Assembly: GCA_011523845.1 (NCBI GenBank)
Contig: WTFV01000011.1
Coordinates: 68,871-132,870 of the forward strand
Direction of reading: 5' to 3'
Source: Acidobacteriota bacterium
GTDB lineage: Bacteria > Acidobacteriota > Vicinamibacteria > Vicinamibacterales > UBA8438
DNA: 64,000 bases
This document shows positions 21,192-42,749 of this stretch, one piece after another. The notes under the pieces are model-generated. The model had not been told where the DNA came from, did no database searches, and saw nothing but the letters and a program-made list of their open reading frames with translations. The stretch's first letter is position 1. Every line of letters begins with the position of its first letter. Both the position numbers and the translations under genes were made by a program.

Positions 21192-21386
21192 AGCCGTCGT
21201 CGCCATGGCCGGTCGAAGTCTAGCGCACGCGGCAGGAATCGCCGGCGACGGCGTGACGATTCACGCTGTTGGACAGTTATGCTTGACGTAACGTGGATAC
21301 GTGCCGCTACGGCGGGCACGGTCCGATGGCAGCGGGAACCGAAGCGTCGTGATCGTCGACTACCACCGGTGAGGAGCACAGGCCCA
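21192..21386. repeat. Copy 1 of duplicated res-5'-end / higB-tail junction segment
   Basis: 21192-21240 is near-identical to 35428-35476, including res codons 1-5 on the minus strand. GGGAACCGAAGCGTCGTGATC...CTACCACC...ACAGGCCCA recurs at 35501-35566 and partly at 36520-36557. Confidence 0.8.
21292..21372 (+). pseudogene. higB (RelE/ParE-family) 3' remnant
   Basis: A short frame opens after a TAA and ends ...SGNRSVVIVDYHR*, 13 nt before higA. VEIVDYH is the usual HigB C-terminus as I remember it. No N-terminal part is present. Confidence 0.45.
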
Positions 21387-21724
21387 TGCGTGAGCCCATC
21401 CACCCAGGCGAGACGCTGCGCGAGGATCTCGACGCCCTCGGCATGAGCGCGTCGGAGCTTGCGCGGCGCATCGAGGTACCGGTGCACCGCATCACTCAGA
21501 TTCTCAACGGCCGGCGCGCGGTCACCGGCGACACGGCGCTGCGCCTCGGGCGCTTCTTCGGAACCTCGGGCGAGTTCTGGCTCAACCTCCAGAAGCTCTA
21601 CGAGCTGCGGCTTGCGGAGCGCGAGAACGGCGCGGCGATCGCCCGGCTGCCCACCCTGGACGACGCCAGGGACCTGCACGCGGCTGCCCCGCCCGGCGCT
21701 TCCTCGGCTCCGGGATCGGCGTGA
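21386..21724 (+). CDS. higA: HigA-family antitoxin (XRE-type HTH)
   Basis: MREPIHPGETLREDLDALGMSASELARRIEVPVHRITQILNGRRAVTGDTALRLGRFFGTSGEFWLNLQ is the classic HigA/VapI pattern. Confidence 0.85.
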   Translation: MREPIHPGETLREDLDALGMSASELARRIEVPVHRITQILNGRRAVTGDTALRLGRFFGTSGEFWLNLQKLYELRLAERENGAAIARLPTLDDARDLHAAAPPGASSAPGSA

Positions 21725-21764
21725 TGAACGCGGCCCTTCCGGGCCTCGGAGACCGACGCATGGC

Positions 21765-22412: not shown

Positions 22413-22520
22413 GGCGTCCTCGGTCGGATCGAGCCCGACGGTCGGGCGTGTCCGGAGATCGATGTCGCGGCCGAGTCACGAGAGGGATCGAAATCGGGCT
22501 CGTGTCCATCTGTGCGCGCC

Positions 22521-23249: not shown

Positions 23250-23440
23250 CCCGCCTCCTCAGCGGATGCGCGCGATGAGGCGCGGCTCCCCCGTACTCGT
23301 CAATGAGCCAGACGGTTCGCCCCGACGGTTGCGTGCGTCCGGAATCTCCAGGACGCCTCCACACTGTACCGCGTCGGTGTCCATCTCGGCCTTCAGCGTC
23401 TTGAGCGCGCTGCAGGGATCGCGACCATCTTGCGCGTCGC
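23250..23440 (-). pseudogene. Possible DUF6883-like remnant, frameshifted
   Basis: Two minus-strand frames read ...GRTVWLIDEYGG and ...GEPRLIARIR*, directly upstream of the DUF4926 gene. The pairing of these families and the C-terminal pattern are recalled from memory only. Confidence 0.25.
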
Positions 23441-23442
23441 GC

Positions 23443-23581
23443 GTCGAAGGGATTGACCACGGGGACGCCGAGACCTTCGATGTCCGGGCGTGTTGCGGGG
23501 GACGACGGTCATGTCGTGCACACGGGCGGTCGCGGCCAGGCGTTCCGTTGCGGTCCTGGAAACACCGGTCAGCTTGTTCAA
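23443..23581 (-). pseudogene. vapC (PIN) C-terminal remnant, frameshifted
   Basis: ...ERLAATARVHDMTVV in one frame continues as RPDIEGLGVPVVNPFDA in another. This resembles a VapC C-terminus (IAATA..H.ltlvTrN..Df....v.v.NPF). Confidence 0.4.
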
Positions 23582-23606
23582 CCGCGGCTTGGATGCGTGT
23601 GCACGG

Positions 23607-28223: not shown

Positions 28224-28237
28224 GCTGCGCCTTGCCG

Positions 28238-29227: not shown

Positions 29228-29258
29228 CAAGCATTCTCCCACGTGGGTTCGCGGCGAT

Positions 29259-32078
29259 TCACACCCGGAACACCTTCATCACCTCGTCGCCGAGGTGGTT
29301 GATGACCTTGACGGCGATGCGGCCCGACGCGGGGCGGTCGAACGGGCGCGAGAGGTCGCTGTGGAGCGACGCCCACGCGTCGGCGTCGATCTCGGCCTTC
29401 AGCGTCGTCTTCAGCGCCTTGTAGGGGTCGTTCGCGCCGAGGAAGTAGGCCTGCCGGACGAAGAAGCTCTCCTCGTTGTAGTCGGTGTCGACGAACCAGC
29501 AGGCGATGCCGTCGGCGCCGTCGCTGCGGACCTCGCCGGTGGTCGGGTGGAAGACGTCCACGCCGTTGATCCGCACCTGGATCCGCGTGCCGCCGTCGCC
29601 TTCGCCGCCAACCGGAAGGATGTCGATGTCCGGCTCGCCGAAGATGACGAACAGGTTGCCCTTGCCGGTGTTCTTCAGCTCGTCCGCCATGTGGAGGTCG
29701 GCGTTCATGCGCGCCTTCAGGACCGGGATGCGGCCGAGGCGGTTGAACTCCGACGCGTGCGCTTCGTAGTTGAACGCGCAGGCGATCAGGACGTCGAAGC
29801 CGGCGTCGCCCGCCTCGCGCGCGGCCGCCACCAGGTCCGGACGGGCCACGGTGCCGAACTCGGGGCCGACGAAGATCCCGGCGCGCTTGTCCGGGCCGGC
29901 ATCCCCATCGCCTTCGCGGTAGCGTCCCTCCGCGCAGATGTACTCGCCCGGCCAGGGCGTAACGGCGGCGAAGGCGATGCGATCCTCCTTGTGCACCTGC
30001 TGCACGCCGGCAGTCGCGAGCTGCTCCAGGATCATGGTCGCGAAGTCCTGTTGCGGCCCGTAGTCGGCCCTCGGCTCGGCGGCGCGGTCGATGAGCTCGT
30101 CGTCCTCGTCGACCGCCAGCACGCGATGCGGCGACAGGCTCTCCACCGTGAACGGTCCCGCCACCCGGACCTTCCGGTTGTCCTCGTAGGGCTTGTCGTA
30201 GAGGTACTCGTAGTCGGCCCGGGCCGCGATGGAAGCGTCGATCTCCTGTTGCCGGGCGATGCGCGCCTCCCACCACAGTCGATGCGTCTCGGCCGCCTCC
30301 GCCGGCCAGTCCTCGGACGCCTCGCGGGGAACCTGCCACTCCTCCCAGTCGGCATCGAGCCGGGCGTTCAGGTCGTCGCGCAACGGCTCCAGCGTCTCCT
30401 GCCAGCGCTCCCAGATGCCGTCGATCTCCGCGTTGTTGGCGATCGACTTGAGCGTGATGTGCGGGACACACTCGTAGACGAACCCCTGCCGGACGTCGCC
30501 GCGCGTCGGAGCGTCCGATGGCGCCTTTCGCGTGATCTCGGCCTCCTTGCGCTGCCCTTCCGGACTGTCAGCGAGAAGGTAGTACGGGTAGCGCGCGCCC
30601 ATGATGCGGGCACGGGCGAGGGCCAGCGCTACTCGGGAGGTGTCGATGGTGATCCAGCGGCGACCCCATTGCTCGGCGACGTATGCTGTGGTCCCGGACC
30701 CACAGGTCGGATCAAGTACCAGATCCCCGGGGTCGGTTGTCATGAGGATGCAGCGTTCAGCAACCGAACGGTTAGTCTGAACAACATACACCTTGGGGTC
30801 ATCAAATCCGGACGTAGTTGTGTCAGTCCACAAATTGGAGTAAGGAAAAATGCGGAAATCATCCAAGAACCTAACATAACGAAGTGTGTTTCCAATGAAG
30901 ATCATGCGCTTTGCGCAGGCGAGCCTCTGCAGTCCAGCCGCATCAGTCTTGAAAGTACCCTTATTGACGCCGAATGACTTTCCTTCGTAAGTGAACTCCC
31001 GAACATCCCCGCCCTGCGCCGGCCTCTGACTGGTAATGTTGTCGTGCGAGAAAATCCTGAGAGCCTTTGGATCTACGCCAGACCCTATCCATTCTGATGT
31101 GGTGCGCCTTTCACCACTTGCGTTCTCTCCGAACGAATACTGACTCGCACCAGCGGTACCAGGTTCTTTGAGCTGAAAAATCGGCCGGTACTTAGGAGCT
31201 TCAGACTTACTAAACCACAATAGAAGATCAAAAACACCTGATAGAGAGTCTGATGAGGTCGACGATGTCTTCTGGAACGCAATCTCGGCAATGAACCGCC
31301 CATCCCCGAACACCTCATCCATCAACGCCCGCACGCGGTGCACATTCTCATCCCCGATCTGCACGAAGATCGAACCGCTCTCCGCCAGCAGCTCGCGTGC
31401 CACAACCAACCGGTCCCGCAGATACGTCAGATACGAGTGAATCCCGTCGCGCCAGGTATCCCGGAACGCCCGGACCTGTTCCGGCTCCCGGCTGATGTGC
31501 TCCGCCTTGCCGTCCTTCACGTCGCGACTGGTCGTCGACCACTGGAAGTTCGAGTTGAACTTGATGCCGTAGGGCGGGTCCAGGTAGATACACTGCACCT
31601 TGCCGCGCAACCCTTCGCGCTCGGCGAGGGACGCCATCACCTGCAGGCTGTCGCCGAGGATCATCCGGTTCGACCAGTTGGCGTCGTGCTGGTAGAACTC
31701 GGTCCGGGCGTTATCGCTCGGCAGCCCGTTGAAGTCGGCGAACAGATCCGGCTGGGCCTCCGCGCCGTCACCGCCCTGCCCGGCCCGTCCGTTCCTGCGC
31801 TGCCGGCGGAGGTCGTCGACGAGCACCTTCGGGTGGACCTTCTCCTGGATGAACAGAGGCGGCGCCTGCACGACGAGGTCGGACCAGTCCTGCGCGTCCT
31901 TGCCGCGCCAGACGAGCTGTGGATCAAGGTCGCGGTTGCGGCGCTCATAGGCGACCTGGACGGGGCTCTGCTCGGCGCGTTCCATCACGGACCGGAATTC
32001 GGCCGTGGGGATGTTCTTGCGCGACGCCTCCTGGTGCCTGAACGTCTCGACGGCCTTCCTGGATCGGTTCTTCGGCAT
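29259..32078 (-). CDS. mod: Type III-like DNA methyltransferase (Mod), beta-class N6A/N4C
   Basis: Start MPKNRSRK at 32078. Motif IV IYLDPPYG lies upstream of motif I DPTCGSGTT (beta-class order), with a low-GC presumed target-recognition region between them. Long C-terminal domain. Confidence 0.85.
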   Translation of the reverse strand: MPKNRSRKAVETFRHQEASRKNIPTAEFRSVMERAEQSPVQVAYERRNRDLDPQLVWRGKDAQDWSDLVVQAPPLFIQEKVHPKVLVDDLRRQRRNGRAGQGGDGAEAQPDLFADFNGLPSDNARTEFYQHDANWSNRMILGDSLQVMASLAEREGLRGKVQCIYLDPPYGIKFNSNFQWSTTSRDVKDGKAEHISREPEQVRAFRDTWRDGIHSYLTYLRDRLVVARELLAESGSIFVQIGDENVHRVRALMDEVFGDGRFIAEIAFQKTSSTSSDSLSGVFDLLLWFSKSEAPKYRPIFQLKEPGTAGASQYSFGENASGERRTTSEWIGSGVDPKALRIFSHDNITSQRPAQGGDVREFTYEGKSFGVNKGTFKTDAAGLQRLACAKRMIFIGNTLRYVRFLDDFRIFPYSNLWTDTTTSGFDDPKVYVVQTNRSVAERCILMTTDPGDLVLDPTCGSGTTAYVAEQWGRRWITIDTSRVALALARARIMGARYPYYLLADSPEGQRKEAEITRKAPSDAPTRGDVRQGFVYECVPHITLKSIANNAEIDGIWERWQETLEPLRDDLNARLDADWEEWQVPREASEDWPAEAAETHRLWWEARIARQQEIDASIAARADYEYLYDKPYEDNRKVRVAGPFTVESLSPHRVLAVDEDDELIDRAAEPRADYGPQQDFATMILEQLATAGVQQVHKEDRIAFAAVTPWPGEYICAEGRYREGDGDAGPDKRAGIFVGPEFGTVARPDLVAAAREAGDAGFDVLIACAFNYEAHASEFNRLGRIPVLKARMNADLHMADELKNTGKGNLFVIFGEPDIDILPVGGEGDGGTRIQVRINGVDVFHPTTGEVRSDGADGIACWFVDTDYNEESFFVRQAYFLGANDPYKALKTTLKAEIDADAWASLHSDLSRPFDRPASGRIAVKVINHLGDEVMKVFRV

Positions 32079-32098
32079 GGGACACACCCGCGGTCGGC

Positions 32099-32314
32099 TC
32101 ACCCGGCCTTGTACGACGCCACTGGCAAGGCTCGGGTCTCGAGCGTAGCCAGATCGAGCTTCCTCGAAGCGTGGTCTATATCGAAACCGACCGGATTGCC
32201 GTCGGCGTCGAGGTCGACGTTGAGTCCGGTCACAACCTCGCGGGCTTCCACGCCTGGGCCGGCTCTCAGTTCCACGTACAGGCTGTCGGTGTCCGGGTAG
32301 TAGTGGAGCTTCAT
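32099..32314 (-). CDS. DUF2283-like small protein
   Basis: MKLHYYPDTDSLYVELRAGPG...VGFDIDHAS. An alternative upstream ATG at 32389 overlaps the res stop (ATGA) and would add 25 aa. Confidence 0.6.
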   Translation of the reverse strand: MKLHYYPDTDSLYVELRAGPGVEAREVVTGLNVDLDADGNPVGFDIDHASRKLDLATLETRALPVASYKAG

Positions 32315-32385
32315 GACGAGTCCCTTCCAAAACCCGCAGTCGAAGAAGGCATCGTGGATTGTCTCACCGTCGGCCAGCGTCACGG

Positions 32386-35300
32386 TCATCGTGTCACCCG
32401 CTCGACCAACGCCTGGAACTGCGCCCTCAGCGCGCCCTCGAAGTCCTCCTCCATCGTGTAGACGTCGGTCAGCTCGGCGAAGGCCCAACGGCCGTAGGCG
32501 CCGAGGTTGTTGACGCCGGGGACCCAGTAGGTGTCCATCGTCGTCTTCTTGTCCTTGGCGTCCTCGCCCCGGTAGCCCTTCACCTCGACCACGAGGCGGA
32601 GCAGGTCCTCGTCGCCGCGGCCGTCGTCGACGAGCACGACGAAATCGGGGAGGTAGCGGCGCGTCCGGGAACCGTAGCGGTAGGGCACCTCGAGGCCGAG
32701 GGCGTGGTTCTTGACGTAGGCGCGCACCCGCGGATGCGATTCGACCACGAGGCAGAACTGGGCCTCCCAGTCGCTGTCGCACACGACCCAGTTGACGTGG
32801 CAGCGGCCGGGGTCGGTCTCCCAGCGGAGCTTCTTCGAGGTCGTGAAGCGCACGTGGAGCGTCGAGCCGACGGGGTTGTAGGGGTCCAGCATGGCCTTGA
32901 TCGGACGCTCGCCCAGCAGATTGGAGACGATCCCGGCCGTGATACGTTCGCACGCCATGTCGGCCAGCTCCTGGTACATGAGCTGGGCCGGATACGTCCC
33001 GCCCTTGCAGTCGAGATGACCGTCGAGCCACTGGCGCGTGATCCGCTTGAGCTGGCCGAACAGGTGCAGCTTCGGCTCCTCGCCGGGATCCCGCCACCTG
33101 GTCTCCAGCAGCCGCTTCGTCAGATGAAAGAGCAGGGTCGACTTCCGCAGGTCGCGGGTGTGAATCAGGTTCAGATCGACCCCTTCACCGATGATGCCCT
33201 CGACGCGCGTGATGGACGGCCCGACCAGCGCGGGGGTGAGCTCCAGCGTCGAGTCGTCGTTGAAGCGGGCGGTCAGGCGCTCTTCGGGGAGCTCGACGCG
33301 GTAGCCCGCCACCCGCGGGAAACGGATCTCGCAGGCGTCGCGTTCCGGCGTGATCGCCCGCACCAGCACCGTCTCCCGCGGCGGCGGCGGCTTGACCGGC
33401 ACCGGCTTGGCGGTGAAGTCGAACGGGATGCCGAGCACGTCGGCGTACTCGACGTCGAAGAGGCCGTCCTCGTTCGGGTCGTAGGACTGGCGGCGCAGCG
33501 CGCGCCCGACGACCTGCTCGCAGAGGAGCTGCGTCCCGAAGGCGCGGACGCCCAGGATGTGGGTGACGGTGCGGGCGTCCCAGCCCTCGGTCAGCATCGA
33601 GACGGAGACGACGCAGCGGACCGATCCGCCGAGGGTGTCCGGCTTGCCGACCGTGTTCATCACCTCGCGGAGCAGATCCTGGTCCGACAGGTGCTCGGCC
33701 TGCTTGCGGTCACCCGTCCGGGCGACGATCTCCCGCCGGAAGCGCTCGATCTCGTCGCCGGCCGCGGCGCGGAAGTTCTTGTCGAGCGCCTCGCCCGAGT
33801 CGAGCTGCTCGCTGTCGATGAGCAGCGTGCGGGGACGGGGGTGCGGGTTGCCGTGCTCGTCGAAGTTGCGAAACAGCTTCAGGCGTCCGTTGACCAGCGT
33901 CGTGGCGCCGTACTCGTTCTCGCGGAAGAAGCCGGAGACGAAGTCGTAGACGAGCTTCGAGGTCGAGGTGTTGTTGCAGACGATGATGAAGCAGGGCGGC
34001 ACGGCGATGCCGGCCTTCTCCCACAGCTCGAACGTCTGCTCGTAGTGGCCGTAGAGCGCCTGGAGCGCGGTCTGCAACTCCACCGGCAGGCTGAGCGGGT
34101 CGAGTCCGCCCGCCTTGCCGCGGCCCCGCTTCGGCATCTTCGGGCGGATGTGCTCCCACAGGTTCCGGAACTTCGGCATCTCGCCGCCGGGGATGTTGTC
34201 GGCCACCGGCACGCGCGGCAGCTTCACGATGCCGCACTCGATGGCGTCCATCAGCGAGAAGTCGCTCGCCGTCCAGGGGAACAGCGTCCCCTCCGCGTAG
34301 CCGGAGCCGCGCAGGAAGAAGGGCGTGGCCGAGAGATCGATCACGCGCTGCAGGCCAAGCTTCCGCTGCACCGCCTCGAGCCCGGAGATCCAGACCCGCG
34401 CCGCCTCGCGGTTCCGCTCGGCCTCCTTGCGGTCGTCGCCCTTGAGCGGGCCTTCTTCGTCCTCCCCGGCCGGCTTCTCGCGGTAGCAGTGGTGCGCCTC
34501 GTCGTTCAGGGCCAGGATGCGCTTCATGCCCATCAGGCCCGGCATGACGCGCTGCAGCATCTGCCCTTCGGTCTCCTTCGTCCGCAGCTCGGGCCCGGGC
34601 CCCTGCAGCAGGGCGCGACCGCCCTTCGACAGTTCCAGCGTCTCGCGCCGCAGGAACGCGTGGTAGTTGGTGACGACGATCTTCGCCCGCTCCAGGTCGC
34701 GGAGCATGTCGTTCGGCACCAGCTCGCGGCTCGCGTAGTAGCTGTCCGGATCGTTGGGCTGGAGCACCCGCAACCGGTCGCGGATCGTCACGCCGGGGGT
34801 CACCACCAGGAAGCCGCGCGTGAACCGCCGGCTGCCCGGCCGGCGCACCGCGTTGATCGTCTGCCAGGCGATGATCATCGCCATGACGGTGGTCTTGCCG
34901 GCGCCGGTGGCGAGCTTCAGCGCCAGCCGCGCGAGGCCGGGATTGGCCCCTTCGCTGGCGGCGTCGATCTGATCGAGAAACCGGCGGCCCTCCTTGCCGA
35001 GGCTCGGCGCCACCTCGGTCAGCCAGATCGCGGTCTCCACCGCCTCGACCTGGCAGAAGAACGGCCGGATGTCGCCGAACCGATGGCTGCGCCAGTGGGT
35101 CAGGAGCCGTGCGGTCTCCGGCGTCACGCTCCAGGCGTTCGGATCCGGCAGCTCGCGCCAGCGATCCACATGGTGGCGGACGCCGCCGATGAACGCCGTC
35201 AGGTCGTACTGCTGCGCCTCGGTCCCGAGCGCCTGCGCGGCCGCGTCGAAGAGGATCTCCTCCTGCTGGATGCCCTTCTGCTTCTTCGGCTTCGGGATCG

Positions 35301-35442
35301 GCGTGATGAAGGCGACCTTGCGGCGCTCGGAGAGGATCCGGTTCGTCGGCTGGCCGCTCGGGTCGAGCTCCCAGTGGCGGGACGGGTACTCGTACGGCGA
35401 GTTCAGGATCGGTTGCTCGAAGAATGCAGCCGTCGTCGCCAT
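32386..35442 (-). CDS. res: Type III restriction enzyme Res subunit (SF2 helicase-nuclease)
   Basis: 1018 aa. MATTAAFFEQPILNSPYEYP. Motif I KLATGAGKT, motif II ALNDEAHHC, SVSMLTEGWD, QVVGRALRR. The C-terminal region has endonuclease-like EVKG. Confidence 0.85.
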   Translation of the reverse strand: MATTAAFFEQPILNSPYEYPSRHWELDPSGQPTNRILSERRKVAFITPIPKPKKQKGIQQEEILFDAAAQALGTEAQQYDLTAFIGGVRHHVDRWRELPDPNAWSVTPETARLLTHWRSHRFGDIRPFFCQVEAVETAIWLTEVAPSLGKEGRRFLDQIDAASEGANPGLARLALKLATGAGKTTVMAMIIAWQTINAVRRPGSRRFTRGFLVVTPGVTIRDRLRVLQPNDPDSYYASRELVPNDMLRDLERAKIVVTNYHAFLRRETLELSKGGRALLQGPGPELRTKETEGQMLQRVMPGLMGMKRILALNDEAHHCYREKPAGEDEEGPLKGDDRKEAERNREAARVWISGLEAVQRKLGLQRVIDLSATPFFLRGSGYAEGTLFPWTASDFSLMDAIECGIVKLPRVPVADNIPGGEMPKFRNLWEHIRPKMPKRGRGKAGGLDPLSLPVELQTALQALYGHYEQTFELWEKAGIAVPPCFIIVCNNTSTSKLVYDFVSGFFRENEYGATTLVNGRLKLFRNFDEHGNPHPRPRTLLIDSEQLDSGEALDKNFRAAAGDEIERFRREIVARTGDRKQAEHLSDQDLLREVMNTVGKPDTLGGSVRCVVSVSMLTEGWDARTVTHILGVRAFGTQLLCEQVVGRALRRQSYDPNEDGLFDVEYADVLGIPFDFTAKPVPVKPPPPRETVLVRAITPERDACEIRFPRVAGYRVELPEERLTARFNDDSTLELTPALVGPSITRVEGIIGEGVDLNLIHTRDLRKSTLLFHLTKRLLETRWRDPGEEPKLHLFGQLKRITRQWLDGHLDCKGGTYPAQLMYQELADMACERITAGIVSNLLGERPIKAMLDPYNPVGSTLHVRFTTSKKLRWETDPGRCHVNWVVCDSDWEAQFCLVVESHPRVRAYVKNHALGLEVPYRYGSRTRRYLPDFVVLVDDGRGDEDLLRLVVEVKGYRGEDAKDKKTTMDTYWVPGVNNLGAYGRWAFAELTDVYTMEEDFEGALRAQFQALVERVTR

Positions 35443-35566
35443 GGCCGGTCGAAGTCTAGCGCACGCGCCAGGAATCCCGTGCGACGGTGGACACGGTGGG
35501 GCTTGCCGCGGGAACCGAAGCGTCGTGATCCGTCGGAGCTACCACCAATGAAGAGGTACAGGCCCA
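35428..35566. repeat. Copy 2 of res-5'-end / higB-tail junction segment
   Basis: Aligns with 21192-21386 but has an internal deletion. Ends at ACAGGCCCA, exactly where higA would start. Confidence 0.8.
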
Positions 35567-35570
35567 CCCT

Positions 35571-35706
35571 GGGATCGGCATCATCGCCAATGCGTTCGAT
35601 CCGGATCTGCAGTGGAATGACCTCATCGTAGCAGGCGGCCACCGCGACCGCCGGAACTCCAGCCCCTTCGCGAGGTGCATGGTGCCGACCGCGACCGATC
35701 CGGACC
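35571..35706 (-). pseudogene. Fragment of a paralogous UvrD-like helicase (C-terminal region)
   Basis: About 85 % identical to 23733-23868 in direct orientation. Encodes ...VAVGTMHLAKGLEF... and ...CYDEVIPLQIRIERIGDDAD. Confidence 0.75.
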
Positions 35707-35868
35707 CGCTCGAAGCGCTGAGGGACCGGCGCCGGGGGCAGTGGAGCATCCGATCAACGACCAGTGGCGGATCTGCGTATGGCCCGAGGGGGCTCGGGCT
35801 CATTGAGCCAAGCGTCAAGGTATATAATGCCCGATATCCGTCCGCTGGCCTTTGGGACAGCGGGGCGC

Positions 35869-36033
35869 ATGGCGGATGAACAGCTTGGAGCCCGATTCGA
35901 CGAGACTCTCGACGCGCTCCGTAACACCAACGGACGAATCGGCCGGCTCGAAGACACGGTGGACCTGCTCAAGGCCACGGGCTTGAGAACAGGGCACGCG
36001 TCCGGTGGCGACTCCGACGCGCGCGTGACATGA
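35869..36033 (+). CDS. Small hypothetical coiled-coil protein
   Basis: MADEQLGARFDETLDALRNTNGRIGRLEDTVDLLKATG. GTATATAAT lies at 35819-35828 upstream. The stop overlaps the next ATG (ATGA). Confidence 0.35.
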   Translation: MADEQLGARFDETLDALRNTNGRIGRLEDTVDLLKATGLRTGHASGGDSDARVT

Positions 36034-36542
36034 GGCCCAAGATGGAGAACAAGGAGTACGTTCTTCGAGGATTCATCAGGCTCCGTCCAAGTGGGCGCTT
36101 TGTCGGAGTCTGTCTGAGGCCCAACCTCGTTGTCGAAGCCGACTCGAGAGAGGAAGCGCTCGAAAAGTTGAAGGACCTTATCGGTGCGTATCGTGCAGAT
36201 GCGGTCAGGGATGGCGAGCTCGATCACTTCATGAAGCAACGTGCGCCGCTTGCGTTCTATCTGGAATGGTTCAGCCTGCGGATCGCGCAATTCGGCCACG
36301 AGAACTGGCGTAACATTCGGGACGTCGTTCGCAGGCTCCTGCACGAGCAGCCGAACAGTTCGGGACCCGTCCCGGACGCGGTCGGGCGGCCGTTCCGGAC
36401 GTTTACCGAAAGTCGAAACGCATCTCGCAGCATGCTTGATGCCCTTCTGTTTTTTCGGCTTCGGGATCGGCGTGATGAACGCGACTGGCCCGCGGCGAGC
36501 TCCGGCCCGGCCGGGGTGGAGATCGGCGACCACCACCGATGA
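36030..36542 (+). CDS. Hypothetical protein with HicB/UPF0150-like N-terminus; 3' end runs into gene fragments
   Basis: EYVLRGFIRLRPSGRFVGVCLRPNLVVEADSREEALEKLKDLIGAYRADAV is HicB-like by pattern only. After about 36435 the frame is antisense to a res fragment, so the native C-terminus is unknown. Confidence 0.35.
   Translation: MRPKMENKEYVLRGFIRLRPSGRFVGVCLRPNLVVEADSREEALEKLKDLIGAYRADAVRDGELDHFMKQRAPLAFYLEWFSLRIAQFGHENWRNIRDVVRRLLHEQPNSSGPVPDAVGRPFRTFTESRNASRSMLDALLFFRLRDRRDERDWPAASSGPAGVEIGDHHR
36436..36485 (-). pseudogene. Fragment of a paralogous res gene (codons about 45-60)
   Basis: Near-identical to 35268-35317. Encodes VAFITPIPKPKKQKGI. Confidence 0.7.
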
Positions 36543-36556
36543 GGAGGCACAGGCCC

Positions 36557-36705
36557 ATGCGCGAACCTATCCACCCCGGCGAGACGCTGCGCGAGGACCT
36601 CGACGCGCTCGGCATGAGCGCGGCGGAGCTTGCGCGGCGCATCGAGATACCTGTGAACCGCATTTCCCGGATTCTCAACGGCCAGCGAGCGGTTACCGGC
36701 GACCG
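36557..36705 (+). pseudogene. Truncated higA paralogue (first about 50 codons), preceded by a higB tail ...VEIGDHHR*
   Basis: MREPIHPGETLREDLDALGMSAAELARRIEIPVNRISRILNGQRAVTGD. Similarity then switches abruptly to mod. Confidence 0.75.
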
Positions 36706-36712
36706 AACTCCG

Positions 36713-36955
36713 GGCCAAAGAAGATCCCGGCGCACTTCCTCCGGGGCCGGCATCCCCCTCGCCTCCGCGGTAGCGTCCCTCCGCGCAGGTGTACTCCCCC
36801 GGCCACTGCGTGACGCCCACGAAGGCAATGCGACTCTCCTTGTGCGCCTGCTGCACGCCGGCGGTCGCCGGCTGCTCCACGACCACCGCCGCGAAGTACT
36901 GCTGCGGCCCGTAGTTGGCCCGCTCGCGGCGCGCTCGATGAGGACGCCTCGCCAT
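36713..36955 (-). pseudogene. Fragment of a paralogous mod gene
   Basis: About 80 % identical to 29862-30110 in direct orientation. Encodes ANYGPQQYFAAVVVEQPATAGVQQAHKESRIAFVGVTQWPGEYTCAEGRY, compared with ADYGPQQDFATMILEQLATAGVQQVHKEDRIAFAAVTPWPGEYICAEGRY in mod. Confidence 0.75.
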
Positions 36956-37071
36956 GTACACCCTCGCTCCGCTCGCCCTCTCCAAAGGAGCTCCGCCACC
37001 GCACCCTCGACGCCTGATGTCTGCTAGGCTGTACAGGTTCGCTCAAAACACGCCTTGATGGTAGTGCTACA

Positions 37072-38895
37072 ATGAGGATACGCCGACTTAAGCTCGCAAA
37101 CTTTCGCGCCGTCGTCGACGGTGAAGTTGTCTTTCCGGGCCACACAGTCATTATTGGCGGAAACAGTGTCGGCAAGTCGACCCTCTGCGACGCCTTGGAC
37201 CTCGTGCTCGGGCCGGACCGTCTATCCCGAACCACCGCGATAGACGAACATGACTTCCTCGAGCGCCGCTATCTCGACGCCGACGGAACTCCCATTCGCA
37301 TCGAGTTGGAAGTCGTGATAACCGATCTAACGGAGGACGTCTTCACCAAGTTTCGGACCCACCTCGAGTACTGGAACACCTCGACAAACCAACTCTTGGA
37401 CGAAATGGCCTCGCCGGAAGATGTCGACAGCGACAACGTCGTGCCCAGCCTTCGCATTAAGTTCGAAGGCGCATACGACATTGAGGAGGACGAATTCAGC
37501 GCGGAGACCTACTTCGCCAGCCCTCCGGTAGAAGACGGAGAACGCCGGGAACGGGTCTCGCGCGCGGCCAAGCGACAATTCGGGTTCATTTATCTCCGGG
37601 CGCTGCGGACCGGCGCCCGGGCGCTTAGCTTGGAACGCGGCTCCCTGCTTGATGTCATCTTGAAGCTCAAGGAAGATGATCGATCCGCTATGTGGGAACA
37701 GACGCTTGCTTCGATGGAGGACCTGGATCCCGCGATTGATGCCATTCCGCAGCTCAGAGCGATACTTGATCAAATCGACCGCCGCGTTCGACGCTTCGTT
37801 GGTTTGTCCGCTGACGACCGCACATTTCGTCTCTATCCGTCGGCGCTGACGCGAGAAAGCCTCCGCCGGTCAATTACCCTCTTTGGCTCTTCCGAGCGCT
37901 CGAATACACCGGTGCCGTATTGGCGGCTCGGGTCAGGCGTTATCAATTCCATGGTGTTCTCCTTGCTGACCTTCATTGCCGAACTCAAGTCGAACGTGAT
38001 CTTCGCCATGGAAGAACCCGAGATCGCGATTCCGCCACACACCCAGCGCCGCATCGTTCAGTTCCTTCAGGGAAGAATGGACCAGTCGATCCTCACGACG
38101 CACTCCCCGTTTGTTCTGGAGCAGTACGCTCCGGCCGACGTCGTCCTTCTCGAAAGGGCAGATGACGGCGTCGTCTCCGGTCGCCGGATTGAGGTAACTG
38201 GAATTAAGGCCAAGACCTACAAAGGTAATCTTCGTCGAGTGTTAGCGGAGGCCATGCTCGGTAATGCTGTGATCTGCGTTGAAGGGATCTCCGATGCCGA
38301 AGTGGTCCACACCGCGTCGGCCGTTCTCGAGAAAAGTACGCAGGAAGGAACCTACACGCCGCTCGACCTATCCGGCGTTACGGTTGTGCACTGTGAGGGA
38401 GACGGTGCGTTGTTGCCCTACGGCCAGTTTTTTTCGGGCATCGGTCTCAAAACCTATGCTTTCTATGATAGACAGAAAAACGCTGCCATCCGCGACCAGA
38501 TCGAAGACGCTTTCGATTCAGTGTGGGGCCTCGAACAGACGGGGATCGAGTATCTGCTTGCGGAAGAAGTTTCTATCGATGTCATCCGCAACTTCCTGTC
38601 AACGGCATCCGGATGGGACAACTATCCGCATAATGCAATGACGCCCGGATTGTACACGTACGAGCCGGACGCTGACGACGACGCGGTTCGTGAGCTTTGT
38701 AAACGCGTTCTCAAGAGGAGGAAAGGGTCCGGCTACGCGCAGGCCTTGGTCGAGCTTTGTTCCAATGACGACCTGCCGGGAATTGTTGTGGAGGGTTTGG
38801 AGCGCATCAGCGAGGACATGCCGAGCGAACTCTCGACCGTCGTTGAGGACGGCAGTCACGAGGTCGACGACGAGCTGACCGCTCCCGTGAGTTGA
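37072..38895 (+). CDS. gajA: OLD-family ATPase/Toprim nuclease (GajA-like)
   Basis: 607 aa. MRIRRLKLANFRA, Walker A GGNSVGKST, FAMEEPEIAIPPHTQR, and a C-terminal Toprim-like AVICVEGISDAEV ... VVHCEGDG. Confidence 0.85.
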   Translation: MRIRRLKLANFRAVVDGEVVFPGHTVIIGGNSVGKSTLCDALDLVLGPDRLSRTTAIDEHDFLERRYLDADGTPIRIELEVVITDLTEDVFTKFRTHLEYWNTSTNQLLDEMASPEDVDSDNVVPSLRIKFEGAYDIEEDEFSAETYFASPPVEDGERRERVSRAAKRQFGFIYLRALRTGARALSLERGSLLDVILKLKEDDRSAMWEQTLASMEDLDPAIDAIPQLRAILDQIDRRVRRFVGLSADDRTFRLYPSALTRESLRRSITLFGSSERSNTPVPYWRLGSGVINSMVFSLLTFIAELKSNVIFAMEEPEIAIPPHTQRRIVQFLQGRMDQSILTTHSPFVLEQYAPADVVLLERADDGVVSGRRIEVTGIKAKTYKGNLRRVLAEAMLGNAVICVEGISDAEVVHTASAVLEKSTQEGTYTPLDLSGVTVVHCEGDGALLPYGQFFSGIGLKTYAFYDRQKNAAIRDQIEDAFDSVWGLEQTGIEYLLAEEVSIDVIRNFLSTASGWDNYPHNAMTPGLYTYEPDADDDAVRELCKRVLKRRKGSGYAQALVELCSNDDLPGIVVEGLERISEDMPSELSTVVEDGSHEVDDELTAPVS

Positions 38896-38897
38896 AC

Positions 38898-40637
38898 ATG
38901 CCCAGCCCAGAGGACCACTTCGAAATCTGCGAACAACGGCGTGCCATTCTGGAAGGCGCCGGCCATATGCTGATACTCGGCGGCCCGGGGTCGGGAAAGA
39001 CCACAATTGCGCTTCTGAAGGCCCGCCGTGCCGTTCTTGCAAGCCTTCAGCCGGAGCAGTCCGTGCTCTTTCTCAGCTTCTCCAATTCCGCGATTAGGCG
39101 GATCCTGGAGAGCACCGGAGATATTCTGACCACGAGAATCGCGCGCAATGTGGAAATCAAGACCTACCATTCTTTTGCCTGGGGCATTCTAAGGTCTCAT
39201 GGCTACCTCCTGTCATCACAACGACAACTAGCGATTGTCGCGGCGCAAGATGCGGCGGTTATCCGTGCTGGATTGAAGGACGAAGAATGGGCTACAGAAG
39301 AAGATCGTCTTTTTTTGGCAGACGGACGCTTGACATATGACCAGTTTGCGCCCCGCGCAGCGGACCTTCTTGAACGATCCGGCGTGATTCGTAGACGCTT
39401 CGGTCATGCTTATCCTTTGATCCTCGTGGACGAATTTCAGGACACGGACGAGGATCAGTGGCGCCTAATTCGGACGCTATCGCACGACTCTGACGTCATT
39501 GCTCTAGGAGATACCGAGCAGCGCATCTACGCGTGGCGTAAGGGAGTGAGCACAACTCGGCTTCAGGACTTCGCTGAGACTTTGGGCGCAACGGTATTTG
39601 ATTTTCGAAATGAGAACAATCGAAGCCCGGCCACCGGCATTGCCGGATACGCGCGCAGCCTATTGTCGCCAGATGTGCAGCTAGAGCCTCCCGACGACAT
39701 CGAGTTTCGGCACTTTCGGGCCGGGATGTTCGCAGTTGGATTGCGCTTTGCCTTGAACAATACATGGAAGCAAGCGGTCAAGCGGACCAGCCGCAGCGAC
39801 CCGTCGGTTGTCGTGGCGGCGCGAAGTCGCACAATGGTCCGCTTGATTTCGGATACGTTGGCGCGGAAGCTGACAGTGAACGGAAAGGAGCATCGCCCGA
39901 TCAGGCACGACGTCATGTTTGACCAGATGCAGATAACCCTTGCGGCGAGGGTCATTGCGTTCGTCATGGCATCACAAACTGCTCCACCGCACGAAAGGCT
40001 CGCAAACGCCTTGGACAGGATCAGTGCGGTGTACCGATGTTCAGGAACAAAGACCGGGATCAAGACATCGGATCGATTGTTGCGCTGGGCCGAAGGTTGC
40101 CGCAACGAGAAGGTGCCAAACACAAAGTGCGTGAGGGCCCTGACTGCGGTATTCGAGAAGGTGAATGCAAGCGGTTTCGTTGGCTCGCCGACAGCGGATT
40201 GGCTCACCGTTCGGCGAGCTCTTGAAGGCGCCGATGCGGAGGAGCTCCAACGCGCCGGTGACCATGCCCGATATCTGCGCCTGCTACGCCGTGGCTCGGC
40301 CATTGAGGCACAACTTGGTGACCTGTGGAAACAATGGGGCAATTACGGGGGTGCCGAGGCCGCTTTGAACCGGGCGATCGTTCAGGATCAACTTATGGAC
40401 AATCACCGGGAGGCATTCAGCATCAGCGTCATGACCATGCATCAGCTCAAGGCGCGAGAATATGACGCTGTTCTTCTCGTCGAAGACCAGCATCGGACCT
40501 TTCGCGGGAGAGACAACGAGGCACCCTTCATGGAAACGCGACGCCTATTGCAGGTTTCCCTGACGCGGGCGCGTCACTTTGCGTGCATTCTAGCGGAACG
40601 GAGAAGCGCCACATTGAATGTCATTTTCCAAAGTTGA
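38898..40637 (+). CDS. gajB: UvrD-like helicase (GajB-like)
   Basis: Walker A GGPGSGKTT, LILVDEFQDT, VMTMHQLKAREYD, VSLTRAR. The ATG at 38898 is 3 nt after the gajA stop (the track uses TTG 38892). Confidence 0.85.
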   Translation: MPSPEDHFEICEQRRAILEGAGHMLILGGPGSGKTTIALLKARRAVLASLQPEQSVLFLSFSNSAIRRILESTGDILTTRIARNVEIKTYHSFAWGILRSHGYLLSSQRQLAIVAAQDAAVIRAGLKDEEWATEEDRLFLADGRLTYDQFAPRAADLLERSGVIRRRFGHAYPLILVDEFQDTDEDQWRLIRTLSHDSDVIALGDTEQRIYAWRKGVSTTRLQDFAETLGATVFDFRNENNRSPATGIAGYARSLLSPDVQLEPPDDIEFRHFRAGMFAVGLRFALNNTWKQAVKRTSRSDPSVVVAARSRTMVRLISDTLARKLTVNGKEHRPIRHDVMFDQMQITLAARVIAFVMASQTAPPHERLANALDRISAVYRCSGTKTGIKTSDRLLRWAEGCRNEKVPNTKCVRALTAVFEKVNASGFVGSPTADWLTVRRALEGADAEELQRAGDHARYLRLLRRGSAIEAQLGDLWKQWGNYGGAEAALNRAIVQDQLMDNHREAFSISVMTMHQLKAREYDAVLLVEDQHRTFRGRDNEAPFMETRRLLQVSLTRARHFACILAERRSATLNVIFQS

Positions 40638-40855: not shown

Positions 40856-41167
40856 CTAGCGCCAAGCGTTTCGCAGCGGCTCGTAGAGTTCCGGAAACGC
40901 CGCCTCGCAGCGGATGGCGTCGAGCAACGGCTGCCATGCCCAGGGGCCGCCGTCGTAGTGCCTGCGCCACCACTCGGCGGCGTAGACGGCGAAGACCCGA
41001 CCGCCCGCGCCGGGGTCACGCTGGGGTCTCCACCCGGTGAGCGCGTTACGCGCCTCCTCGAAGCGCTCGGTGGAACACCGGTACGCATAAAGGGGCCGCC
41101 CGTCGGGAACGGAGAGTCCCGCAGACCCCAACAGACTGGACAACCACGCAGTGGACGTGACAGGCAT
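40856..41167 (-). pseudogene. N-terminal fragment (103 aa) of a probably much larger defence-island protein
   Basis: Good SD (GGGGAGGAGC then ATG). MPVTSTAWLSSLLGSAGL...GRPLYAYRCSTERFEEA...FAVYAAEWWRRHYDGGPWAWQPLLDAI recalls the N-terminus of STY4851/ECs_5259-type large proteins (memory only). It ends at a stop with protein-like sequence continuing in another frame. Confidence 0.35.
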
Positions 41168-42008: not shown

Positions 42009-42749
42009 ATGGCCTACAGCGACTACGTGATCTTCGTCGACGAGAGCGGTGACCATAGTCTCACATCGATAGACCATGACTACCCGATCTTCGTCCTGGA
42101 GTTCTGCATACTGCGCACTGATCACTACATACAAGGCATCCTCCCCAAGGTTCATGCATTCAAGTTCGAGCATTTCGGACACGATCTCGTCGTGCTGCAC
42201 GAACATGAGATCCGAAAGCAGAAGAGACCTTTCGGTTTTCTCAAGAACCAGCAACGACGTCAAGGCTTCTTTGACGGGCTGAATCGACTAATCCAGGACG
42301 CGGATTTCACGATAATAGCGACTGTGATTCAAAAGCACAGGCTGGCGCAGGCCTACCGATACCCCGCTAATCCGTACGAGTTGGCGCTCCAATTCTGCAT
42401 GGAGCGGGCCTACGGTCTGCTGGAGGCAGAGGAGCAGCATATGGCCAAGACTCATCTCATTGTAGAGAAGCGTGGCAAACGGGAGGACGACCAGCTTGAA
42501 CTCGCTTTTCGGCGAATTCGTGACGGCGAGAACTACCGGGAACTGGCGATGCCAGGCTTTGAGATCTTCTTCGCTGACAAGCGGTCGAACTCGGCTGGAT
42601 TGCAGTTGGCAGACTTGACCGTGCGGCCGATAGGTGCACACGTCTTGAACCGGACACAACCGAATCGGGCTTGGGACATCATCCAAACGAAGCTATACAG
42701 CCGAAACGGACGTACTGACGGATGGGGACTGAATGTCTTCCCGCGCTGA
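42009..42749 (+). CDS. DUF3800 domain protein
   Basis: 246 aa at about 50 % GC. YVIFVDESGDHS at the N-terminus and ...SAGLQLADL... later, typical of DUF3800 as I remember it. Confidence 0.75.
   Translation: MAYSDYVIFVDESGDHSLTSIDHDYPIFVLEFCILRTDHYIQGILPKVHAFKFEHFGHDLVVLHEHEIRKQKRPFGFLKNQQRRQGFFDGLNRLIQDADFTIIATVIQKHRLAQAYRYPANPYELALQFCMERAYGLLEAEEQHMAKTHLIVEKRGKREDDQLELAFRRIRDGENYRELAMPGFEIFFADKRSNSAGLQLADLTVRPIGAHVLNRTQPNRAWDIIQTKLYSRNGRTDGWGLNVFPR

What the first reader, a model, noticed from the sequence alone, without database searches (positions are those of the whole stretch)
35428..37050. 1.6-kb patchwork of diverged fragments of res, higB/higA, mod and the helicase between the R-M operon and Gabija
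Reading left to right:
- 35428-35566 repeats 21192-21386 (res 5' end, upstream region and higB tail).
- 35571-35706 repeats 23733-23868 (helicase C-terminal region).
- 35707-36435 is unique sequence with two small genes.
- 36436-36485 repeats 35268-35317 (res codons about 45-60).
- About 36520-36705 repeats 21350-21534 (higB tail and the first 50 codons of higA).
- 36713-36955 repeats 29862-30110 (internal mod).

All fragments are in direct orientation. By eye they are roughly 80-90 % identical rather than identical. They look like relics of a second, paralogous copy of the higBA...mod-res island that was eroded by deletions, not a recent duplication or misassembly.
Basis: seen in the sequence. 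Interest (0 to 1): 0.65.

Follow-up and report, generated by a model that had tools for sequence, protein, structure and literature searches.

The report
Gene-fragment graveyard in a defence island
The 1.6 kb between a restriction-modification operon and a Gabija system is a real but non-functional mosaic of broken pieces of older, diverged copies of neighbouring defence and toxin-antitoxin genes, an ordinary by-product of defence-island turnover.

Summary
Three assemblies are 100% identical across the region, and the junctions share at most 8 nt, so an assembly chimera is very unlikely. The pieces are relics of diverged copies, not a recent duplication, but one second copy is not enough. The window holds three hig loci and three res N-terminal relics besides the intact res. 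Segment 35428-35566 is the native upstream region of the resident res, contiguous in relative L084. The "unique" 35704-35794 is an internal higB fragment, recognisable only against a near-intact higB in relative L088. That higB half is split by a 694-bp insertion carrying an orf54-orf132 cassette (frameshifted) plus a res relic. Mismatches favour third codon positions (36/64, p=1e-4). The mod and helicase relics are outgroups to the resident genes and their L084 orthologues. Related Vicinamibacterales genomes carry different mosaics of the same modules, and distant phyla show res/mod relics beside this R-M family. Best reading: serial acquisition or duplication of hig-flanked island variants, then microhomology-mediated deletions. 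Ordinary; low interest.

The parts
35428..35487 (-). Res codons 1-5 (35428-35442) plus 45 bp of native res upstream region. A paralogous copy lies at 21192-21251.
   Evidence: 93% identity over 60 bp. Contiguous with res in L084 (17225-18681 ~ W34100-35566, 90%).
35481..35566 (+). Internally deleted higB (mini-ORF, L084-type junction GTCGGAGCTACC) plus the hig ribosome-binding region, ending at the first base of the lost higA start codon.
   Evidence: 79% to 21306-21386 and 89% to L084. Deletion junction compared with the full higB of L088.
35573..35709 (-). Helicase relic: residues about 625-661 of the 703-aa UvrD-like helicase, with one frameshift.
   Evidence: 91% to 23735-23872. Matches the helicase in two frames. 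tblastn with the L085 helicase. Mismatches by codon position 2/2/8.
35704..35794 (+). higB internal fragment (HigB residues 52-81, L088 type) with a 1-nt deletion near 35750.
   Evidence: 86% to L088 7092-7183. Alignment and translation. tblastn with L088 HigB, 87% aa. L088 HigB matches PF05015 at E 1.6e-13.
35803..36435 (+). orf54-orf132 cassette: orf54 at 35869-36033 and the orf132 homologue from 36042. A 1-nt deletion at 36409/36410 makes it read on to 36542 as 'orf170'.
   Evidence: Homologues are 132 aa at 88-91% identity. 91.5-92% nt identity to L084, L088 and L089 over exactly 35803-36435. Frameshift seen in the alignment.
36433..36485 (-). Res relic, codons 43-60 (motif VAFITPIPKPKKQKGI). 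Part of the 694-bp insertion 35792-36485.
   Evidence: 92% to 35264-35316 and 97% to 21704-21732. Protein alignment.
36486..36542 (+). higB C-terminal fragment (residues 77-94 plus stop). It continues 35704-35794 across the insertion. TGGCCCG is present at both insertion edges (35780 and 36486).
   Evidence: L088 7172-7389 ~ W36486-36703 at 91%, abutting the 35704-35791-like segment with a 12-bp overlap. tblastn.
36557..36703 (+). higA relic, codons 1-49 (HTH truncated). It forms the 5' part of the chimeric ORF 36539-37027.
   Evidence: 88.5% to 21351-21532 and 91.8% to L088. TIGR02607 46.6 bits, below the 47.7 cutoff, covering profile positions 1-50 only. Mismatches by codon position 4/2/11.
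36703..36942 (-). Mod relic (residues about 662-742 of the 939-aa Mod) with a frameshift. It is joined to higA' with a 1-nt overlap.
   Evidence: 85% to 29854-30095, E 4e-71. 71% aa over 65 residues, then a frame change. Outgroup to resident/L084.
36943..37071 (.). Unassigned spacer upstream of gajA. G+C drops here towards the Gabija module.
   Evidence: No similarity found in the window or in any locus. GC profile.
21192..21386 (.). Displaced paralogue of the res start, its upstream region and the internally deleted higB (resident-type junction, with a 54-bp extra segment at 21252-21305). The res' mini-ORF MATTARV* overlaps the GNAT start codon (ATGA).
21386..21724 (+). Only intact higA (112 aa). 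Its last ~12 codons are replaced by antisense of a res-like relic.
   Evidence: TIGR02607 93.6 bits. Homology to L088 higA ends at 21684.
21698..21752 (-). Third res N-terminal relic (codons 37-55), abutting the higA 3' end.
   Evidence: 85% to 35280-35333, E 8e-11. Protein alignment.

Best explanation
The segment is a non-functional scar field. The genome is a Vicinamibacterales-like (Acidobacteriota) organism.

The genes involved form an operon: a BPTD_3080-family res, a type III mod, the IetA/IetS pair and a UvrD-like helicase. A higBA toxin-antitoxin locus sits upstream of res and is transcribed divergently from it.

Inferred history: diverged variants of this hig-flanked island came to lie next to each other more than once. 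The route was probably homologous single-crossover (Campbell-type) integration, unequal exchange, or homology-facilitated illegitimate recombination, with the shared res-5'/hig region as the anchor.

Shown: the redundant copies were then cut down by deletions whose junctions carry 1-8 nt of microhomology, and one 694-bp insertion occurred.

What remains to the right of the intact res, in order:
1. Its native upstream region, with a toxin-deleted higB.
2. A helicase C-terminal relic.
3. The 3' half of a second higB, interrupted by an orf54-orf132 cassette that brought along a res relic.
4. The first 49 codons of higA.
5. An internal mod relic.
Gabija follows.

A sister copy of the res start, its upstream region and the deleted higB lies 14.2 kb to the left, followed by the only intact higA. 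The whole operon is therefore bracketed by direct repeats.

Shown: the repeats, their orientation, the breakpoints, the frameshifts, the divergence pattern and the alternative mosaics in relatives. Inferred: the order of events and the recombination route.
For: - Repeats are significant and all direct.
- Identity collapses to background within 40 nt of each edge. Junction microhomologies are 7 nt (GCGACGG/GCTACGG), 1 nt (higA'|mod'), 3-4 nt (orf132|res') and 8 nt (GATCGTCG, flanking the higB-body deletion). TGGCCCG flanks the 694-bp insertion.
- The relics carry frameshifts.
- 36 of 64 mismatches are at codon position 3 (p=1.4e-4). There is no adenine bias.
- Resident and L084 copies are 94.2-94.6% identical, while patch copies are 85-91% identical to both.
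- Patch-2 hig shares the short form and junction type with L084. Patch-3 hig shares a retained higB body with L088.
- In L084 the res, its upstream region, the deleted higB and higA are contiguous.
- L084/L085/L086, L088 and L089 hold different mosaics of the same modules. L084-L086 carry long-read-style contig names.
- res/mod relics lie beside intact operons in L039 and L082, and a res 3' duplicate detected at the DNA level only lies in L042.
- Fragment order is colinear with the island in two passes. At most one descent with all fragments direct has a chance probability of about 1e-3.
- Three assemblies are identical.
- No Rfam, promoter, terminator or inverted-repeat signal.
Against: - No genome with two intact tandem units, or with an intact allele matching the relics, was found. 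The metagenome scan also missed the window's own JGI contig, so its power is limited.
- With enough hypothetical units, any fragment order can be made colinear.
- The mod relic shows only a weak third-position excess (14/31, p=0.12). Part of its divergence may be neutral decay, which also inflates its outgroup position.
- The three identical assemblies may derive from one sample.
- No recombinase or integrase that could explain serial integration was seen among the ORFs I scanned. Only an IS1595 transposase was found, at 13455-14519.
Confidence: 0.78

Rival explanations
1. Purely in-situ history. One ancient tandem duplication (or triplication) of the resident island occurred in this lineage, followed by long neutral decay and deletions, with no input of foreign alleles.
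For: The window's own copies are the best or near-best match for most fragments. All fragments are in direct orientation and colinear. The mod relic's mismatches are spread almost evenly over codon positions.
Against: The third-position excess in the hel, higA and res relics implies divergence while the genes were still functional. Long, initially identical tandem repeats would be expected to collapse by homologous recombination before reaching 10-15% divergence; this is established knowledge and was not tested here. Patch hig alleles share indel and junction states with alleles in other genomes (L084 type, L088 type) rather than with the resident copy. The mod and hel relics are outgroups to resident plus L084.
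Confidence: 0.14
2. Assembly artefact: a metagenome contig that chimerically joins reads from co-occurring strain variants.
For: The source is a short-read metagenome assembly (k141 contig name). The fragments resemble strain-level variants (85-93%).
Against: Three contigs from at least two pipelines are 100% identical over 9 kb spanning the patch. Junctions share only 1-8 nt, far below any assembler k-mer. The relics carry frameshifts and truncations, not clean allelic swaps. Contigs of relatives with long-read-style names show comparable mosaics.
Confidence: 0.03
3. Functional element. The relics serve as silent cassettes for recombinational variation of mod/res. Alternatively, + strand transcripts running from the orf54 promoter towards gajA act as antisense regulators of res and mod mRNAs.
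For: The fragments are direct repeats of genes on the opposite strand, so + strand transcripts would be 85-92% complementary to res/mod mRNA (shown directly by the sequence). Relics recur near this R-M family in other phyla.
Against: The mod relic lies C-terminal to the N6_N4_Mtase domain match, Mod-939 residues about 161-486 versus relic 662-742. Divergence is uniform, not a flank-conserved, core-variable pattern. No recombinase, inverted repeats, RNA family or promoter signal was found. Relic content and positions differ completely between related genomes, so nothing is conserved as a unit.
Confidence: 0.04

Closest known systems
[quoted passage not shown]
   Same: A block under 20 kb containing both R and M genes (21387-35427, 14.2 kb) is bracketed by direct repeats longer than 30 bp (21192-21386 and 35428-35566). 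No integrase or transposase was found among the ORFs I scanned inside the block. Related genomes show substitution and partial homology at the locus.
   Different: The repeats are 79-93% identical rather than near-identical. They include the first five codons of res itself. No empty-site genome was available to show a single target copy. In addition, further relics (hel', higB', higA', mod', res') lie beyond the right repeat, which that model does not predict.
Pseudogene and gene-remnant accumulation in defence islands and TA-rich hotspots (general knowledge, not tested against a specific paper)
   Same: Truncated, frameshifted fragments of defence and TA genes are packed between intact systems (type III-like R-M, IetAS, Gabija). 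There are sharp microhomology junctions and the region has lower G+C than the flanks.
   Different: Here several relics can be traced to intact paralogues in the same 64-kb window, and to alternative alleles in other genomes, so the order of loss events can be partly reconstructed.
HigBA type II toxin-antitoxin loci
   Same: The resident HigA matches TIGR02607 (93.6 bits). The relative L088 has a HigB matching PF05015. higB lies upstream of higA, as in canonical hig loci.
   Different: No copy in the window has a functional toxin gene. Two have the higB body deleted between 8-bp repeats, and the third is a split, frameshifted 3' half. Only one higA is intact, so it is an orphan antitoxin.
Diversity-generating retroelement template/variable repeats
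   Same: Pairs of 50-240-bp direct repeats at 85-93% identity, one member inside a coding gene.
   Different: Mismatches show no adenine specificity. No reverse transcriptase was found among the ORFs scanned. The repeats map to five different genes.

Membership tests
Decayed gene relics (pseudogene fragments) | Significant nucleotide similarity to intact genes | tested here: met
   blastn E 1e-5 to 1e-69, 79-97% identity.
Decayed gene relics (pseudogene fragments) | Truncation and/or frameshifts that preclude the parental product | tested here: met
   hel', mod', higB' and orf132 each carry a frameshift. All are 17-81-codon pieces of 94-1018-aa proteins.
Decayed gene relics (pseudogene fragments) | Discrete breakpoints rather than fading similarity | tested here: met
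   Flank identity is 20-42% within 40 nt of every edge.
R-M insertion with long target duplication (Furuta 2010) | Inserted segment contains both R and M genes and is under 20 kb | tested here: met
   21387-35427 (14.2 kb) holds res and mod.
R-M insertion with long target duplication (Furuta 2010) | Flanking direct repeats longer than 30 bp | tested here: met
   21192-21251/35428-35487 (60 bp, 93%) and 21306-21386/35481-35566 (about 85 bp, 79%).
R-M insertion with long target duplication (Furuta 2010) | A related genome with an empty site carrying one copy of the target | tested here: inconclusive
   L084 has the res, its upstream region, the deleted higB and higA contiguous. L088 has hig without res. 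Neither is an orthologous empty site, because their flanks are not homologous to the window.
Diversity-generating retroelement | Adenine-specific TR to VR mismatches | tested here: not met
   The substitution spectra are mixed, for example C>G 10 and A>G 6 in mod.
Diversity-generating retroelement | Reverse transcriptase gene nearby | tested here: not met
   No RT domain in any of the roughly 40 island ORFs scanned with Pfam. Not every small ORF was scanned.
Invertible / shufflon-type phase-variable R-M | Inverted repeats between expressed and silent copies, plus a site-specific recombinase | tested here: not met
   All repeats are direct. Only one overlapping palindrome was found in the patch. 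No recombinase was found among the scanned ORFs.
HigBA toxin-antitoxin | HigA-family antitoxin (TIGR02607) above cutoff | tested here: met
   Resident 21386-21724: 93.6 bits against a cutoff of 47.7. The patch copy scores 46.6 bits, below the cutoff, and is truncated at profile position 50.
HigBA toxin-antitoxin | Intact HigB toxin (PF05015) adjacent to higA | tested here: not met
   There is no Pfam hit for the window's ORF at 21168-21446. The body is deleted in two copies and the third is split and frameshifted. L088's higB matches PF05015 at E 1.6e-13.
Integron cassette array | intI integrase and attC sites at cassette boundaries | not tested
   No integrase was seen in the scanned ORFs. 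attC models were not run. The orf54-orf132 cassette boundaries (cattgagc / gcatgc) do not show a GTTRRRY core by eye.

The most novel reading that the evidence does not exclude
The degenerate hig locus together with the res 5' end acts as a reusable recombination anchor (landing pad). Through it, variants of the res-mod(-IetAS)-helicase island, and unrelated cargo such as the orf54-orf132 cassette and Gabija, are serially captured and displaced in Vicinamibacterales. The recurrence of res N-terminal pieces at three independent junctions, and of res/mod relics beside this R-M family in other phyla, would then reflect a family-specific, recombination-prone site rather than chance.
Probability: 0.12. 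Interest if true: 0.55.

Novelty: new member of a known kind. Interest (0 to 1): 0.25.

Why it matters
The main value is for annotation and for reading defence-island history.
- The ORFs called by gene finders in 35.4-37.1 kb (120, 170, 162, 198 and 242 aa) are chimeras of relics and should not be treated as new defence genes.
- The locus gives a fairly clear record of how a defence island turns over. Redundant R-M copies were removed by microhomology deletions. The higB toxin was lost, leaving an orphan antitoxin. Small cassettes were inserted, and a res upstream/leader copy ended up in front of a GNAT gene.
- If res/mod relics next to this widely transferred R-M family prove general, it would point to frequent allelic replacement through homologous anchors. 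That would be of modest interest to people studying R-M mobility.

Tried and rejected
- tblastx of the patch against the window and the relatives was swamped by GC-rich low-complexity hits and was abandoned. Targeted tblastn with defined proteins replaced it.
- The idea that W35704-35791 plus 36486-36520 was a small mobile element (MITE-like, with an 8-bp target duplication in L088) was rejected. Translation showed that L088 6944-7228 is simply an intact-length higB.
- DGR was rejected: no A-bias and no RT.
- Shufflon or silent-cassette variation was rejected: all repeats are direct, there is no recombinase, and the relic lies outside the methylase/TRD region.
- Known RNA families: none found.
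- Promoter, terminator and inverted-repeat scans were uninformative.
- The search for an intact allele of the relic-type Mod in metagenome contigs returned only 49-61% aa hits.
- The search for the hig, orf170, GNAT or Gabija genes beside Res homologues in 80 genome loci found none.
- No tRNA genes, and so no tRNA-type integration site, were found in the window.
Full report
**Setting.** The window is 67% G+C. A lower-G+C stretch (56-69%) runs from about 13 to 43 kb, and the flanks are at 70-72%. Res homologues at 84-89% aa identity come from Vicinamibacterales (Acidobacteriota) MAGs, so the host is probably of that order.

The gene map around the finding comes:

| Coordinates | Strand | Gene |
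|---|---|---|
| 13455-14519 | + | IS1595 transposase |
| 20707-21186 | - | GNAT acetyltransferase |
| 21306-21724 | + | hig locus |
| 21765-22010, 23022-23249 | - | two DUF4926 genes |
| 22122-22412 | - | MNT-type nucleotidyltransferase |
| 23607-25719 | - | UvrD-like helicase, frameshifted |
| 25719-28223 | - | S8 peptidase, PADLOC IetS |
| 28238-29242 | - | AAA ATPase, PADLOC IetA |
| 29259-32078 | - | type III Mod, PDLC03632, 1383 bits |
| 32386-35442 | - | Res, NCBIfam NF046055 BPTD_3080 family, 1325 bits |
| 35443-37071 | | the patchwork |
| 37072-40637 | + | GajA and GajB (Gabija) |

**Observation.** All are plus/plus.

| Patch copy | Source copy | Identity | E-value |
|---|---|---|---|
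| 35428-35487 | 21192-21251 | 93% | 5e-20 |
| 35481-35566 | 21306-21386 | 79% | 8e-11 |
| 35573-35709 | 23735-23872 | 91% | 8e-49 |
| 36433-36485 | 35264-35316 | 92% | 3e-16 |
| 36521-36703 | 21351-21532 | 88.5% | 2e-62 |
| 36703-36942 | 29854-30095 | 85% | 4e-71 |

Two further island-internal repeats exist. 21698-21752 matches 35280-35333 (85%) and, over 29 bp, matches 36455-36483 (97%). 21795-22024 matches 23034-23263 (90%; these are the two DUF4926 genes). Outside each fragment, ungapped identity drops to 20-42% within 40 nt, so the edges are breakpoints rather than fading similarity.

**Artefact check.** Three metagenome contigs are 100% identical to the window over their whole lengths, including the patch. 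They are ERZ27234776 k141_109360 (69.7 kb), ERZ23488010 scaffold_2282 and JGI Ga0326862_10002354. I could not establish whether the underlying samples are independent. The junctions share only 1-8 nt, so they could not have been created by a k-mer-graph assembler. Contigs of relatives with long-read-style names contain comparable mosaics. I put the chimera explanation at about 3%.

**Refined anatomy.** The key came from homologues of the 'unique' ORF 36030-36542. These are 132-aa proteins that match only its first 126 residues, and I fetched their contigs.

Locus L088 contains a near full-length higB at 6944-7228. It translates as VIVGFADRR...GNRLEALRGRRKGQWSIRINDQWRICFV*PEG...VEIVDYHR*, with an in-frame TGA at a Trp position. 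With that codon read as Trp, it matches PF05015 at E 1.6e-13, 51 bits against a cutoff of 27.

Against this reference:

1. The window's 'higB tails' at 21345-21371 and 35520-35551 are higB genes whose bodies were deleted between two 8-bp direct repeats (GATCGTCG). What is left is a 7-8-codon mini-ORF. The junction differs between the resident copy (GTCG|ACTACC) and the patch-2 copy, which shares GTCGGAGCTACC with L084.
3. 36486-36542 encodes HigB residues 77-94 plus the stop.

In L088 these two pieces are contiguous. In the window they are separated by 694 bp (35792-36485), and TGGCCCG is present at both edges. That insert consists of the orf54-orf132 cassette and a res relic. The cassette spans 35803-36435 and is 91.5-92% identical to L084, L088 and L089 over exactly that span. 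The res relic covers codons 43-60 (36433-36485).

The window's orf132 copy has a 1-nt deletion at 36409/36410. Because of it, the ORF reads through the res relic, antisense, to the higB stop, giving the 170-aa chimera.

The helicase relic corresponds to residues about 625-661 of the 703-aa protein and has one frameshift. The mod relic corresponds to residues about 662-742 of 939. It shows 71% aa identity over 65 residues and then changes frame.

The higA relic stops at codon 49 and joins mod' with a 1-nt overlap at 36703. The resulting 162-aa ORF (36539-37027) is a truncated HTH fused to antisense mod'. Its TIGR02607 score is 46.6 bits, below the 47.7 cutoff.

**What is native and what is displaced.** In L084 the sequence homologous to W34100-35566 (res 5' part, upstream region, deleted higB) is contiguous and runs straight on into higA (L084 18598-18859 ~ W21306-21564). 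So 35428-35566 is the resident res's own upstream region, not a relic of another copy. The true scar begins at 35567, where higA has been removed from the second base of its start codon and a 6-nt filler joins the helicase relic.

The copy at 21192-21386 is the displaced one. It retains res codons 1-5, which form a mini-ORF, MATTARV*. The stop of that mini-ORF overlaps the GNAT start codon (ATGA), so GNAT now sits behind a duplicated res upstream/leader region. This copy also carries a 54-bp segment (21252-21305) that is absent from patch-2 and L084 but present in L088. The indel is flanked by GCGACGG/GCTACGG.

The intact higA (112 aa) loses homology to L088's 101-aa higA at 21684. It ends in antisense of a third res relic, codons 37-55 at 21698-21752.

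**How many copies.** The window holds three hig loci and three res N-terminal relics in addition to res. Codons 1-5 (21192-21206) and 37-55 (21698-21752) are in the wrong relative order to be remains of one minus-strand gene. A single 'second copy' therefore cannot account for the data.

That is two ascending passes with all fragments direct. At most one descent with uniform orientation has a chance probability of about 1e-3. With the res relic reassigned to the insertion, the patch reduces to two partial units plus one insertion:

- Unit 2: res upstream region, deleted higB, hel'.
- Unit 3: higB', higA', mod'.

**Age and origin of the relics.** Mismatches fall at codon positions 1/2/3 as follows:

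| Relic | Pos 1 | Pos 2 | Pos 3 |
|---|---|---|---|
| hel | 2 | 2 | 8 |
| higA | 4 | 2 | 11 |
| res | 1 | 0 | 3 |
| mod | 9 | 8 | 14 |

Pooled, 36 of 64 are at position 3 (binomial p=1.4e-4). Without mod it is 22 of 33 (p=9e-5), and mod alone gives p=0.12. Much of the divergence therefore arose while both homologues were still coding, with extra neutral decay in mod'. There is no adenine-specific pattern.

In three-way comparisons, the resident and L084 copies are 94.2% (hel) and 94.6% (mod) identical. The patch copies are 89-91% (hel) and 85% (mod) identical to both. The relics are thus at least as old as the split between these two genomes, or they come from outside it.

Patch-2 hig is closer to L084 (89%) than to the resident copy (83%). 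Patch-3 hig is closest to L088 (92%) and shares its retained higB body. These shared indel states argue for exchange of island variants between genomes rather than a purely in-situ history, although the latter is not excluded (I give it 0.14).

**Relatives.** Among 80 genome loci with Res homologues, the helicase C-part is present in 40 and the IetA/IetS pair in 10-12, across several phyla. None has hig, orf132, GNAT or Gabija nearby. No relative contains a better match to any relic than the window itself.

L084, L085 and L086 show a different erosion of the same island. In order, the locus holds:

1. McrBC.
2. A helicase 3' relic.
3. orf54-orf132.
4. A full helicase.
5. Only the C-terminal 447 aa of Mod.
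6. DUF4926 and DUF6883.
7. A res broken into two pieces.
8. The res upstream region, the deleted higB and higA.

Self-comparison of all loci, plus tblastn, shows relics beside intact operons in distant taxa. L039 (Pseudomonadota) has mod' and res' pieces between res and mod. L082 (Deltaproteobacteria) has a mod N-terminal relic upstream of the full mod. L042 (Latescibacterota) has a res 3' duplicate, detected at the DNA level only.

A metagenome scan with the relic's own Mod peptide found nothing closer than 61% aa. It also missed the window's own JGI contig, so this negative result is weak.

**Mechanism.** Shown: direct diverged repeats bracket the operon, the relics are truncated and frameshifted, the junctions have short microhomologies, and related genomes hold alternative mosaics.

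Inferred: island variants were brought side by side by recombination through the shared res-5'/hig region. Possible routes are Campbell-type integration of a circular copy, unequal crossing-over, or homology-facilitated illegitimate recombination. Redundant copies were then removed by microhomology-mediated deletions. The higB toxin was lost at least once, by deletion between 8-bp repeats. The orf54-orf132 cassette and the Gabija module were added.

The closest published frame is Furuta et al. 2010 (PMC2853133). They report R-M systems flanked by direct repeats at significantly high frequency, insertion with long target duplication for types I-IV, and allelic substitution at R-M loci. The window meets their size, content and repeat-length criteria. 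It lacks an empty-site comparison, and its repeats are much more diverged.

**Functional readings.** No Rfam family, sigma-70-like promoter, terminator or notable inverted repeat lies in 35.0-37.3 kb. The mod relic lies C-terminal to the methyltransferase domain match, and nothing is conserved as a unit between genomes. I therefore give silent-cassette or antisense roles about 4%.

**Verdict.** This is a real feature. It is well explained as a scar field from repeated gain and erosion of hig-flanked defence-island variants. It is an instance of a known phenomenon and of low general interest. Its practical value is in annotation: the ORFs in this interval are chimeras. It is also a readable example of defence-island turnover.

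Noticed in passing
window 23607-25719 (-): The resident UvrD-like helicase is split into two frames by a 1-nt insertion near 24750 (CATCGAAATGCAC, against CATCGAA-TGCAC in L085, whose homologue is an intact 703-aa ORF). It is a likely pseudogene in an otherwise intact operon.
   Followed up: partly
window 25719-29242 (-); loci L005, L009, L010, L014, L017, L029, L036, L045, L047, L048, L063: An IetA/IetS (AAA ATPase + S8 peptidase) pair is embedded between mod and the helicase of a BPTD_3080-family type III-like R-M operon. The same res-mod-IetA-IetS-helicase order recurs in 10-12 of 80 relatives from several phyla. The helicase C-part follows res-mod in 40 of 80.
   Followed up: partly
window 21187-21206 (-) and 20707-21186 (-): A 7-codon res-derived mini-ORF (MATTARV*) ends in an ATGA overlap with the GNAT acetyltransferase start codon. 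GNAT appears to have captured a duplicated res upstream/leader region.
   Followed up: no
window 35803-36435; L084 9763-10395; L088 9784-10395; L089 442-1053: The orf54-orf132 module is 91-92% conserved across at least four genomes, but substitutions show no third-codon-position bias. In L089 and L090 it is followed by a weak HicA-like 92-aa gene (PF07927, E 2e-4, below cutoff). The N-terminus of orf132 looks HicB-like by eye only. Its coding status and function are unresolved.
   Followed up: partly
window 21765-22010 (-) and 23022-23249 (-): Two DUF4926 paralogues (90% nt, 87.5% aa) bracket an MNT-type nucleotidyltransferase and small ORFs. In L084 a DUF4926-DUF6883 pair sits between the truncated mod and the broken res.
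   Followed up: no
window 23370-23421 vs 29376-29430: A further small direct repeat (82%, 55 bp): a probable relic of the mod 3' end lying between DUF4926 and the helicase. L084 13915-13969 matches it at 85%.
   Followed up: no
L039 11916-12367; L082 6255-6685; L042 14866-15088 and 15760-15834: Diverged mod and/or res fragments lie next to intact copies of the same R-M family in Pseudomonadota, Deltaproteobacteria and Latescibacterota MAGs. The L042 case was seen at the DNA level only.
   Followed up: partly
L004 16277-22671: Several 0.5-1.6-kb repeats at 99.5-100% identity, direct and inverted, lie downstream of res, where mod normally sits. They look like multiple IS copies or an invertible arrangement. 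Mod-like sequence in this locus was seen at about 20.1-20.4 kb.
   Followed up: no
L088 7162-7164: The otherwise intact-length higB of L088 has an in-frame TGA where other HigB proteins have Trp (RICFV*PEG). This is either a nonsense mutation or read-through.
   Followed up: no
window 13000-43000: A low-G+C island (56-69% against 70-72% in the flanks). It opens near an IS1595-family transposase (13455-14519). It also contains many small ORFs without Pfam hits, an HSDR_N-domain protein (19299-20420), a YjiT_N-like fragment (40856-41167) and DUF3800 (42009-42749). No tRNA or integrase was found.
   Followed up: partly
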